From: Amphiscolops sp. MND2022
Taxonomy: Eukaryota
DNA length: 64,000 nt
Reading direction: 5' to 3'
Assembly (NCBI GenBank): GCA_964187785.1
Contig: OZ076418.1
Span: 40,548,001-40,612,000 of the forward strand
The notes under the pieces are model-generated. The model saw only the letters and a list, made by a program, of their open reading frames with translations. It searched no databases and had not been told where the DNA came from. A program made the translations under genes and the position numbers. The first letter of the stretch is position 1; every line of letters begins with the position of its first letter. Shown here one piece after another: positions 54,602 to 56,254 of this stretch.

Positions 54602-56254
54602 TCACTTGTCAGATGTCAGACCCGAGTTGCGCGTCTGCCACCAGAGCAGATCACGATGAGGTGTATGTTCTGATAGAGATGAAGTACTTGAAGATTCATG
54701 CCAGTATCTTGACGATATCGGTTTCCTATAGTGAGTACTAAAGCGATCCGGTGGATGACTCAAAGTAAATTGTCGCTTAGTGATATCATCTGAGGAATCA
54801 TGCCAGCTATCTGCAGACTTTAAATTTCGATACTTAGTAGTAAAGAGATTTGGTGGATGACTCAAAGGACGTGGCTCCTCAGTGACAAAGTCTGAAGACT
54901 CATGCCAGCTATCTGAAGATTTTGGTTTTCGATACTTAGCAGTAAAGATATCTGGTGGACGACTCAAAGAAAGTGGCTTTTCGGTGATATCTTCTGCAAC
55001 TTCATCCGGGCTATCTGAAGACTTTGCTTTTTGATACTTAGTAGTAAAGAGGTGCGATGGATGACTCAAAGGAAGTGGCTCCTCAGTGACAAAGTCTGAA
55101 GACTCATGCCAGCTATCCGAAGTCTTTGGTTTTCGATACTTAGCAGTAAAGAGGTGCGATGGATGACTCAAAGGAAGTGGCTTCTCGGTGACAAAGTCTG
55201 AAGACTCATGCCAGCTATCCGAAGTCTTTGGTTTTCGATACTTAGCAGTAAAGAGGTGCGATGGATGACTCAAAGGAAGTGGCTTCTCGGTGACAAAGTC
55301 TGAAGACTCATGCCAGCTATCCGAAGTCTTTGGTTTTCGATACTTAGTAGTAAAGCGCTCTTGCGAGTGACTCAAAGAAAGTTGTCGCTCAGTGATATCA
55401 TCTGAAGACTCGTGTCGGCTGTCTGAAGACTTTGGTAGTGTTAGGTCTCGATACCTGGTAGTAAAGCGATTTGGTGGATGACTCAAAGCAAGTGGCTTCT
55501 CAGTGATAGCTTCATCTGAAGACCCACGCCAGCTCTCTGAAGACTTTGGCTGTCGAGATTCAGCACTAAAACGATCTGGCGGGTGACTCAAAGAAAGTGA
55601 TCTCTTAGCGATATGGTCTGAAGACTCATGCCAGCTATATGTAGGCTTTGGGTTTCGAAACTTAGTAGTAAAGCGATCCGGTGGATGACTCAAAGAAAAT
55701 GGTCTCTCAGTGATATCATCTGAAAACTCAAGCCAGCTGTATGAAGGCCTGAATTTCCGATACTTGGTGCCAAAGTGATCTGGCGGGTGACTCAAAGAAA
55801 GTGATATTTTAGTGATGTCGCCGGAAGACTGCCAACAATCTGAAGACTTTGGCTCGCTATAGCTCAGAGGTTTCGTGCTCGCTAGGGTTTGCAACCATTC
55901 TATCGATGACTCATCAGGCTTCTCCATCTTTGCAGTTTCTTGCTTCCAGCTTTTAGAAAACATTGTCGTAGAGTCAAAGTTCTTGTGAGGAGGTATTTTT
56001 TCTTTAGGCATTTCAAAACAGTTGCAGGTCCCAGTACAAGTAGCGGGACAAAGTTTTGGGAATTTTGGGAATCGAGGGTCATCGCACAGTGCTTTGTTTT
56101 TCCTGCAGTGACGCAATTGGTCAACGCACTGGCAGACTTTAAGTCCTTCATGATCGATATCTACAATTTGCTTCACAAGAATCCTTCGTTCAAATTCCTC
56201 CTGATGGGATAACATGGCCATTAAAGTAGTCAAGATGTAAGCTTTCAGCATCAT
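54602..56254 (-). CDS. Intronless putative secreted protein (550 aa): signal peptide, ShK-like Cys domain, about 11 Ser/His/Pro-rich 34-aa repeats
   Basis: ATG at 56254 (MMLKAYILTTLMAMLS); CVDQLRHCRKNKALCDDPRFPKFPKLCPATCTGTC fits ShKT cysteine spacing (C-x-D..C..C..CxxTC..C); repeats such as KPKTSDSWHESSDFVTEKPLPLSHPSHLFTAKYR (102 bp); frame open for 1.65 kb in AT-rich DNA. Confidence 0.8.
   Translation of the reverse strand: MMLKAYILTTLMAMLSHQEEFERRILVKQIVDIDHEGLKVCQCVDQLRHCRKNKALCDDPRFPKFPKLCPATCTGTCNCFEMPKEKIPPHKNFDSTTMFSKSWKQETAKMEKPDESSIEWLQTLASTKPLSYSEPKSSDCWQSSGDITKISLSLSHPPDHFGTKYRKFRPSYSWLEFSDDITERPFSLSHPPDRFTTKFRNPKPTYSWHESSDHIAKRSLSLSHPPDRFSAESRQPKSSESWRGSSDEAITEKPLALSHPPNRFTTRYRDLTLPKSSDSRHESSDDITERQLSLSHSQERFTTKYRKPKTSDSWHESSDFVTEKPLPLSHPSHLFTAKYRKPKTSDSWHESSDFVTEKPLPLSHPSHLFTAKYRKPKTSDSWHESSDFVTEEPLPLSHPSHLFTTKYQKAKSSDSPDEVAEDITEKPLSLSRPPDIFTAKYRKPKSSDSWHESSDFVTEEPRPLSHPPNLFTTKYRNLKSADSWHDSSDDITKRQFTLSHPPDRFSTHYRKPISSRYWHESSSTSSLSEHTPHRDLLWWQTRNSGLTSDK

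What the first reader, a model, noticed from the sequence alone, without database searches (positions are those of the whole stretch)
54602..56254. Undescribed secreted ShK-domain protein with about 11 His/Ser-rich 34-aa repeats
The architecture is signal peptide, one ShK-like six-Cys module, then repeats of consensus KPKSSDSWHESSDDITEKPLSLSHPPDRFTTKYR with near-invariant W, SD, LSHP and F..(K/R)YR. Several repeats are joined by YR-K/FR, resembling basic convertase sites. It may therefore be a polyprotein releasing many similar peptides plus a toxin-like domain, or an uncleaved phosphorylatable, metal-binding adhesive, mucus or extrusome protein. Three central repeats are almost identical at DNA level, indicating ongoing expansion. 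It is intronless and, if the nAChR gene continues rightward, nested antisense in its intron 2. I do not recognise the repeat from any known family.
Basis: partly seen in the sequence, partly recalled or inferred. Interest (0 to 1): 0.72.

Follow-up and report, generated by a model that had tools for sequence, protein, structure and literature searches.

The report
Orphan secreted repeat protein, acoel worm
A gene of an acoel worm, sitting backwards inside an intron of a nerve-receptor gene, encodes a small cysteine-rich module resembling sea-anemone ShK toxins followed by eleven copies of an unmatched 34-residue repeat, and it is likely a secreted mucus, glue or gland-granule protein rather than a toxin or a neuropeptide precursor.

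Summary
A 550-codon ORF (56254-54602, minus strand) carries 11 repeats of 34-37 residues plus a partial twelfth. The frame stays open despite about 24% DNA divergence between copies (P about 0.006; dN/dS 0.57). The genome is an acoel related to Symsagittifera, and the ORF lies antisense in the 61-kb intron 2 of a nicotinic-receptor gene. The N-terminal module has eight cysteines, not six: a divergent ShK-like core that Pfam misses, flanked by two extra cysteines. Its model, built on an ShK alignment, matches only ShK-type structures, weakly. No relative of the repeat or gene was found in any search. Best reading (0.5): an uncut, disordered, charge-balanced secreted gland protein, working like nematode ShK-mucins but not a true mucin. 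A polyprotein cut after aromatic-Arg (9 of 11 junctions) remains possible (0.2). Expression is untested.

The parts
54602..56254 (-). 550-codon ORF, single coding stretch
   Evidence: single match in the own genome by protein and DNA searches
56207..56254 (-). Candidate signal peptide, residues 1-16; weak
   Evidence: 11-residue hydropathy 1.87, against 2.80-2.95 in three ShK precursors of this genome and 1.93 in the host nAChR; 17 of 182 random frames reach it
56183..56206 (-). Short acidic spacer ending in Arg-Arg (residues 17-24), a likely pro-part
   Evidence: read from the sequence; the only RR in the protein; processing is inferred
56018..56134 (-). Eight-cysteine ShK-like module (Cys41-Cys79): six-Cys core 43/50/57/69/73/77 plus flanking Cys41 and Cys79
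   Evidence: alignment with 8 ShK domains of this genome, profile score and shuffles, AlphaFold pLDDT 84, fold searches
55859..56017 (-). Non-repetitive charged linker, residues 80-132
   Evidence: single match in the own genome
54725..55858 (-). Eleven 34-37-residue repeats, Ser 18.5%, Pro 10.3%, His 6.1%, aromatic 10.6%, Lys+Arg 14.8%, Asp+Glu 14.3%
   Evidence: no fold predicted (pLDDT 50, pTM 0.10)
55031..55336 (-). Youngest repeat copies (units 6-8), 96-100% identical in DNA
54602..54724 (-). Partial twelfth repeat and C-terminal tail with stop codon
54460..54465 (-). AATAAA, candidate polyadenylation signal 137 nt after the stop
   Evidence: use not shown
56276..56690 (.). Old dispersed repeat just upstream of the ATG (70-78% identity to 44 other matches)
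43691..64000 (+). Part of intron 2 of the host nicotinic-receptor gene; the intron runs about 41 kb past the window's end (61,265 nt in all)
   Evidence: exon mapping with the Symsagittifera relative P0004; GT/AG ends in matching phase
43505..43690 (+). Host nAChR coding exon 2 (Cys-loop)
   Evidence: Pfam PF02931 E 2.8e-20; 89% identity to P0004
17571..17898 (+). Host nAChR first coding exon (approximate start)
   Evidence: 71% identity to P0004

Best explanation
This is a real, single-copy, lineage-restricted acoel gene, nested antisense in intron 2 of a nicotinic-receptor gene, that likely encodes a secreted gland protein (mucus, adhesive or rhabdoid/sagittocyst-type granule matrix) whose repeat region is predicted to be unfolded and likely stays uncut. 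Shown: the open frame, the repeat array kept in frame, its near-zero net charge with alternating basic, acidic and aromatic columns, the nesting. Inferred mechanism: a weak signal peptide and an acidic spacer ending in Arg-Arg are removed; the eight-cysteine ShK-like module folds into a compact disulfide-bonded cap that docks or links chains; the eleven repeats act as multivalent stickers (Trp/Phe/Tyr with Lys/Arg, and opposite charge blocks). Their 23 histidines would take the repeat region from about +25 in an acidic granule to about +2 in seawater, which would let the chains condense or bind metal ions on release. Repeat number changes by unequal crossing-over or slippage, the newest copies lying in the middle.
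For: Frame kept open through 93 distinct substitutions, where about 4.3 stops are expected (P 0.006), three length variants all in multiples of 3 nt, dN/dS 0.57 with bootstrap 0.38-0.89. Repeats give no fold and are charge-balanced with 23 His. Eight Cys and an ShK-like model point to the secretory pathway. Signal + ShK + Ser/Thr-rich tract is the layout of Toxocara mucins and C. elegans PHAT gland proteins, one of which lines the pharynx (PMC2563036, PMC3611597; passages); dyad-less ShKT domains occur in limpet mucus (PMC7333891, passages). Acoel epidermis is rich in rhabdoid, mucous and sagittocyst glands (PMC3789126, passages), and acoel secretory cells express many genes without known orthologues (PMC8097308, passages). 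Junctions do not fit convertase rules.
Against: No expression or localisation data. The signal peptide is weak. Synonymous changes are not significantly enriched among distinct changes (25 of 93 against 22.9 expected, P 0.32), so constraint on the amino acids is mild. Ser+Thr reaches only 31 per 100 residues, so it is not a classical mucin. An aromatic residue followed by Arg is kept at 9 of 11 junctions, which a protease site would explain equally well. The ShK call is weak by sequence (12.2 bits against 30-75 for the genome's own domains; random frames in 204 kb reached 11.6) and the model was seeded with ShK sequences. The pH-switch step is by analogy only.
Confidence: 0.5

Rival explanations
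1. A polyprotein: a protease that cuts after aromatic-Arg (cathepsin-L-like or trypsin-like; specificity recalled, from no call) releases about eleven similar 34-residue peptides, many starting with X-Pro, plus the ShK-like module, as a defensive or signalling cocktail.
For: Terminal Arg in 10 of 11 units, aromatic-Arg in 9 of 11; the residue after Arg varies while Arg is kept. Species-specific multicopy peptide precursors are common in acoels (PMC6188537, passages). Amino acids diverge fairly freely (dN/dS 0.57).
Against: No KR, no Gly-Lys/Arg at any junction; RK at 6 of 11, 5 followed by Pro; no Lys/Arg at P4, P6 or P8 in 11 of 11. The two Convolutriloba precursors seen whole in the supplement, and the start of a third, use KR/KK/RR and much shorter peptides. 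Four repeat motifs had 0 hits in that supplement. The units are near neutral, unlike cationic antimicrobial peptides.
Confidence: 0.2
2. The ShK-like module is an active ion-channel blocker or antimicrobial, and the repeats are a disordered carrier or packing region in a defensive gland or extrusome.
For: All 9 structural matches with Z of 2 or more are ShK-type chains, several from venoms or parasites. An acidic spacer ending in RR precedes the module. Arg-Phe and Lys-Phe pairs lie between core Cys3 and Cys4; Arg-Phe is listed as a dyad alternative in PMC10210398 (passages). The module is basic.
Against: No Lys-Tyr; in the Brugia peptide the pair lies 6 and 5 residues before Cys4, where this protein has Pro-Lys. 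Three prolines interrupt that segment. No dibasic site follows the module to free it. Many ShKT domains have no toxin role.
Confidence: 0.12
3. The gene model is incomplete or the protein is not secreted: the real N-terminus comes from an upstream exon, or the product is an intracellular or sperm-associated repeat protein.
For: Weak hydrophobic core; the frame is open 34 codons upstream of the ATG; a possible AG acceptor lies 32 nt upstream and a dispersed repeat fills the next 400 nt.
Against: The ATG pair is followed directly by an uncharged stretch of about 12 residues, an acidic spacer with RR and a cysteine-rich module, which is the order expected of a secreted precursor.
Confidence: 0.1
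4. A dead or never-used copy (retrocopy or satellite) whose open frame is a leftover.
For: No coding intron, repeat-rich intronic setting, no relative found anywhere.
Against: No stop or frameshift in 550 codons; P 0.006 for the array alone; the 132 non-repetitive codons are also open (about 0.0007 by base composition); no parent copy or non-coding copy of the repeat elsewhere in the genome; AATAAA downstream.
Confidence: 0.06

Closest known systems
Toxocara canis mucins Tc-MUC-1 to -5 and C. elegans PHAT gland proteins (PMC3611597, PMC2563036; passages read)
   Same: Signal peptide, ShKT module and a Ser/Thr-rich low-complexity tract in a secreted, non-enzymatic protein.
   Different: Here one divergent N-terminal module with two extra cysteines, where most of those have two to four ShKT domains; the tract is a long 34-residue unit with 29% charged and 11% aromatic residues and only 27% Ser+Thr; no sequence relationship was detected.
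ShKT domain family (Pfam PF01549): aurelin 2lg4, Brugia peptide 2mcr, hookworm Acan1 6dri and Nak1 7l2g, CRISP C-terminal domains
   Same: Six-cysteine spacing, Asp two residues after Cys1, predicted two-helix fold (Z 2.0-3.4, rmsd 2.1-4.9 A over 34-39 residues).
   Different: Below the Pfam cut-off; three residues between the last two core cysteines; extra Cys at both ends on two predicted paired strands; proline-rich segment in place of the Lys-Tyr dyad. SA8 peptides show that ShK-like spacing need not mean ShK disulfide pairing (PMC10210398, abstract and passages).
Xenacoelomorph multicopy neuropeptide precursors (PMC6188537; passages and supplement searches)
   Same: Signal peptide followed by many similar copies; species-specific forms are common in acoels.
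   Different: Those use KR/KK/RR or Gly-basic delimiters and short peptides; here units are 34 residues, without such delimiters, behind a disulfide module.
Disordered load-bearing secretions with terminal cysteine regions, such as velvet worm slime proteins (PMC9999432, passages read)
   Same: Mostly disordered repeat chain, cysteines gathered at a terminus, condensation plausibly driven by pH or ions.
   Different: Analogy only; no sequence similarity was found; this protein is much smaller (64 kDa), nearly free of Gly, and has Cys at one end only.

Membership tests
ShKT domain (PF01549) | Six cysteines in ShK spacing | tested here: met
   All six align with 8 ShK domains of this genome; a spacing pattern written after seeing the query hits 1 of 5044 frames in 204 kb, this ORF. 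Last spacing is three residues, as in L013.
ShKT domain (PF01549) | Score above the Pfam cut-off (20.9 bits) | tested here: not met
   No ShK hit for the whole protein or the excised module; not among the 9 genome matches. Own-genome profile: 12.2 bits, above 2000 of 2000 full shuffles and 2000 of 2000 Cys-fixed shuffles, but below the 30-75 bits of true members.
ShKT domain (PF01549) | ShK two-helix fold | tested here: inconclusive
   AlphaFold pLDDT 84, pTM 0.54; 9 of 9 VIA matches and 8 of 9 weak Foldseek matches (E 2-7) carry ShK-type domains, but Z is only 2.0-3.4 and the model was seeded with ShK sequences. Unseeded Atlas first hit is an ShK cluster at 0.84, a lead only.
ShKT domain (PF01549) | C1-C6, C2-C4, C3-C5 disulfide pairing | not testable with these tools
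Type 1 Kv-blocking ShK toxins | Lys-Tyr functional dyad before Cys4 | tested here: not met
   No Tyr in the module; Pro-Lys at the positions of the Brugia peptide's Lys-Tyr. Lys-Phe and Arg-Phe lie one and two positions off.
Type 1 Kv-blocking ShK toxins | Block of Kv channels | not testable with these tools
   Needs electrophysiology.
Nematode ShK-mucins (Tc-MUC, PHAT) | Signal peptide | tested here: inconclusive
   Hydropathy 1.87 over 11 residues; 17 of 182 random frames reach it; SignalP was not available.
Nematode ShK-mucins (Tc-MUC, PHAT) | Mucin-type Ser/Thr-rich tract (40% Ser+Thr per 100 residues; threshold recalled, from no call) | tested here: not met
   Maximum 31 per 100; 26.7% over the repeats; 29% charged residues.
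Nematode ShK-mucins (Tc-MUC, PHAT) | O-glycosylation and gland expression | not testable with these tools
   No glycosylation predictor or expression data.
Multicopy neuropeptide precursor | Copies delimited by KR/RR/KK or Gly-basic sites, or monobasic Arg with upstream Lys/Arg at P4, P6 or P8 (monobasic rule recalled) | tested here: not met
   0 of 11 junctions KR, RR, KK or Gly-basic; 6 of 11 RK, 5 of them before Pro; 0 of 11 with Lys/Arg at P4, P6 or P8.
Multicopy neuropeptide precursor | Processed peptides detected; neuronal expression | not testable with these tools
   No peptidomics or in situ data.
Intron-nested antisense gene | Whole ORF inside an intron of a host gene on the other strand | tested here: met
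   Host exon 2 ends at 43690 and exon 3 starts at extended position 104956; joining phase restores the sequence seen in P0004. Shown by homology, not by transcripts.

The most novel reading that the evidence does not exclude
A molecular component of an acoel defensive or adhesive secretion (rhabdoid, sagittocyst or mucus gland), of a kind not found in my paper searches: a precursor that couples a four-disulfide variant of the ShK fold to a new His/Trp repeat that is cut after aromatic-Arg into eleven peptides, or that sets into a solid when it passes from an acidic granule into seawater.
Probability: 0.2. Interest if true: 0.7.

Novelty: new variant of a known kind. Interest (0 to 1): 0.42.

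Why it matters
Acoel glands and extrusomes are well described by microscopy, but many genes of their secretory cells have no known orthologue (PMC8097308). This gene is a concrete, single-copy marker to test which gland type makes it and how its product sets or is processed. The repeat has no detected relative, and the eight-cysteine ShK-like module may extend the range of that fold. The general layout (ShK module plus low-complexity tract) is known from nematodes, and orphan secreted repeat proteins are common in soft-bodied invertebrates, so without expression or function the interest is moderate.

Tried and rejected
Homologue searches: word-indexed search of the whole protein, 0 of 7994 candidates at E 0.001; residues 25-110 against shorter proteins, no candidate; HMMER over 1.84 billion representatives, 2 hits (P0002, a HEAT-like repeat protein, 27%; P0003, another repeat protein, 29%), rejected as matches of repeat period and composition; Atlas, no usable hit for the repeats; exact look-up, absent; metagenome contigs, 0 of 37 pattern matches confirmed; PDB sequences, nothing below E 0.16. 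Proteins longer than 963 aa were covered only. No related acoel genome could be searched, so 'lineage-restricted' means no relative in these collections. Pfam YchJ_M-like (E 5.6e-7) is rejected: summed weak matches of repeats to a 24-residue piece, 0 stretches passing alone, and no hit for three repeats alone. Own-genome side hits L007 (retroelement frame), L043 and L044 were rejected as chance (L043 was judged from its E-value and stops only). A repeat profile found no further copy in 204 kb around the gene. Expression: no RNA holder listed, which is no evidence either way. The first repeat analysis had unit 1 out of register and is replaced. Paper searches for acoel+ShK, acoel+ShKT and Convolutriloba+toxin+secret+gland listed 1, 1 and 2 papers, none on such a protein by title and abstract start; a search for ShKT with a fourth disulfide listed nothing relevant among 15 of 43 shown. 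The library holds open-access papers only. Four look-ups in earlier findings gave nothing on this gene.

Full report
Observation. The ORF is there: 56254 to 54602 on the minus strand, 550 codons. Tandem Repeats Finder reports a 102-nt array at 54689-55852 with 11.3 copies and 77% matches. In protein terms there are 132 non-repetitive residues, eleven units of 34-37 residues (133-510), a partial twelfth and a short tail. Leu-Ser and Phe are invariant; His, Pro and the terminal Arg are kept in 10 of 11 units, Trp and Tyr in 9 of 11. Units 6 and 7 are identical in DNA, unit 8 is 96% identical to them and unit 10 89-91%; these four group together in a tree of the units, so the latest duplications are central.

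Is it coding? The five other frames over the array contain 13-39 stops. The units differ by 93 distinct substitutions from their majority state; a neutral simulation with the observed transition bias expects 4.3 stops and gives none in 0.6% of 10,000 runs. The three length variants are 3, 3 and 9 nt. Pairwise dN/dS is 0.57 (bootstrap 0.38-0.89), but synonymous changes are not significantly enriched among distinct changes (25 of 93, expected 22.9, P 0.32). So the frame is protected while the amino acids drift fairly freely. The simulation treats changes as independent on a star tree, so the P value is approximate. An AATAAA lies 137 nt after the stop. Expression could not be tested.

Context. 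The window's first nAChR exon finds one relative, a beta-type subunit of the acoel Symsagittifera roscoffensis at 71% identity; the genome is therefore most likely a related acoel. Mapping that protein onto the window and 100 kb downstream gives exons at 17643, 43503, 104952, 118937 and 147882 in extended window coordinates, all on the plus strand, 71-89% identical. Exon 2 ends at 43690 before GT, exon 3 begins after AG at 104955, and the phase matches. The introns of this host are large and full of transposons, and I found nothing that ties the two genes functionally. The gene is single-copy by protein searches with the N-terminus, linker and repeats and by DNA search, with the caveat that only the best candidates are scored. 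Dispersed repeats flank it below about 54230 and above about 56276, so a promoter or 5' exon must lie in or beyond the upstream repeat; 'intronless' holds only for the coding stretch.

N-terminus. Residues 5-15 are hydrophobic but only moderately (1.87 over 11 residues, against 2.80-2.95 for three ShK precursors of this genome and 1.93 for the host receptor); 17 of 182 random frames reach that value. An acidic spacer ending in the protein's only Arg-Arg follows, as in toxin and peptide pro-parts (general knowledge). Secretion is likely but inferred.

The cysteine module. It has eight cysteines (41, 43, 50, 57, 69, 73, 77, 79). The inner six align with eight ShK domains from this genome. Pfam does not call it. 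A profile of those eight domains scores it 12.2 bits, above all 2000 full and all 2000 Cys-fixed shuffles, but far below true members (30-75 bits) and close to the best random frame in 204 kb (11.6). AlphaFold on the nine-sequence alignment gives pLDDT 84, with two helical segments and a pair of terminal strands that carry Cys41 and Cys79; a fourth disulfide between them is inferred, not read from coordinates. All 9 of 48,161 chains that reach Z 2 are ShK-type (aurelin, Brugia and hookworm peptides, CRISP domains, MMP23; Z 2.0-3.4), and 8 of 9 weak Foldseek matches agree. Because the alignment was made of ShK domains this is partly circular; the unseeded Atlas search also ranks an ShK cluster first, at 0.84, which is only a lead. 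PMC10210398 (abstract, passages) warns that ShK-like spacing can hide another disulfide pattern. The module has no Tyr; where the Brugia peptide has Lys-Tyr it has Pro-Lys, with Lys-Phe and Arg-Phe nearby in a proline-rich segment. I call it a divergent ShK-like module and not a Kv toxin.

The repeats. No fold is predicted for three consecutive units (pLDDT 50, pTM 0.10). Composition: Ser 18.5%, Pro 10.3%, Thr 8.2%, His 6.1%, aromatic 10.6%, Lys+Arg 14.8%, Asp+Glu 14.3%, Gly 0.8%. Each unit has a basic junction, an acidic middle and three aromatic positions. Net charge over the array is +2 without and +25 with protonated His. Ser+Thr peaks at 31 per 100, below a mucin. S-x-E motifs, the usual secretory-kinase site (recalled), number four in the array. 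At the junctions RK occurs in 6 of 11, five times before Pro; KR and Gly-basic sites never; no Lys/Arg at P4, P6 or P8; aromatic-Arg in 9 of 11. The Convolutriloba neuropeptide precursors visible in the supplement of PMC6188537 use KR/KK/RR and short peptides, and four motifs of this repeat had no hit in that supplement. No relative of the repeat was found.

How it most likely works. I favour an uncut secreted gland protein (0.5). The precursor would enter the secretory pathway, lose its signal and acidic spacer, and fold its disulfide cap. The disordered, charge-balanced repeats would stay soluble while His is charged in an acidic granule and would condense, through aromatic-basic and opposite-charge contacts and perhaps His-metal bonds, on release into seawater. 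Every step of this is inferred. It rests on the precedent of nematode ShK-mucins and PHAT proteins (PMC3611597, PMC2563036; passages), on a dyad-less ShKT domain in limpet mucus (PMC7333891; passages), on the many gland types and orphan secretory genes of acoels (PMC3789126, PMC8097308; passages), and on the general behaviour of disordered secreted materials (PMC9999432; passages). Rivals are a polyprotein cut after aromatic-Arg (0.2), an active toxin module on a carrier (0.12), an incomplete or non-secreted model (0.1) and a dead copy (0.06).

Known versus new. It works, most likely, like the nematode ShK-mucins, but it fails their Ser/Thr criterion and is not a member; it fails the neuropeptide-precursor site rules and the Kv-toxin dyad. 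The repeat unit and the eight-cysteine form of the module were not found in any database or paper search made here. Verdict: a real orphan gene, a new variant of a known kind, interest 0.42.

Noticed in passing
L008, L010, L011 (G000 C5) and L015 (C3): A small family of secreted proteins with a clear signal peptide, one ShK domain, one or two short cysteine-rich modules and a second exon that looks like a cystine-knot domain (judged by eye). L010 and L011 are near-identical neighbours 6 kb apart.
   Followed up: no
host nAChR exon 3, L021 (extended window 104956-105155): The subunit has Cys-x-x-Cys in the loop C region in place of adjacent cysteines, and lacks the usual loop B Trp; both features are shared with the Symsagittifera protein P0004. 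The last exon was not found in the 100 kb fetched.
   Followed up: partly
window 5589-6392, minus strand: A 268-residue frame that looks by eye like a JmjC-type or cupin oxygenase fragment, among transposon remnants.
   Followed up: no
window 22455-27128, minus strand: Gypsy-like retrotransposon with long gag and pol frames in different phases, inside intron 1 of the nAChR gene.
   Followed up: no
window 39618-42059, minus strand: 813-residue LINE-type reverse transcriptase frame in intron 1.
   Followed up: no
window 35104-37780: Six tandem copies of a 441-nt unit at 94% identity, related to sequence elsewhere in the genome.
   Followed up: no
window 59953-60858, plus strand: Broken pogo/Tigger-like transposase pieces, by eye.
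   Followed up: no
window 53535-54231: A dispersed repeat with 15-nt tandem units at both ends, 78-90% identical to many genomic copies, just downstream of the gene.
   Followed up: partly
G000 whole genome: At least 149 matches to the ligand-gated channel membrane domain among 150 candidates scored, pointing to a much expanded Cys-loop receptor family.
   Followed up: no
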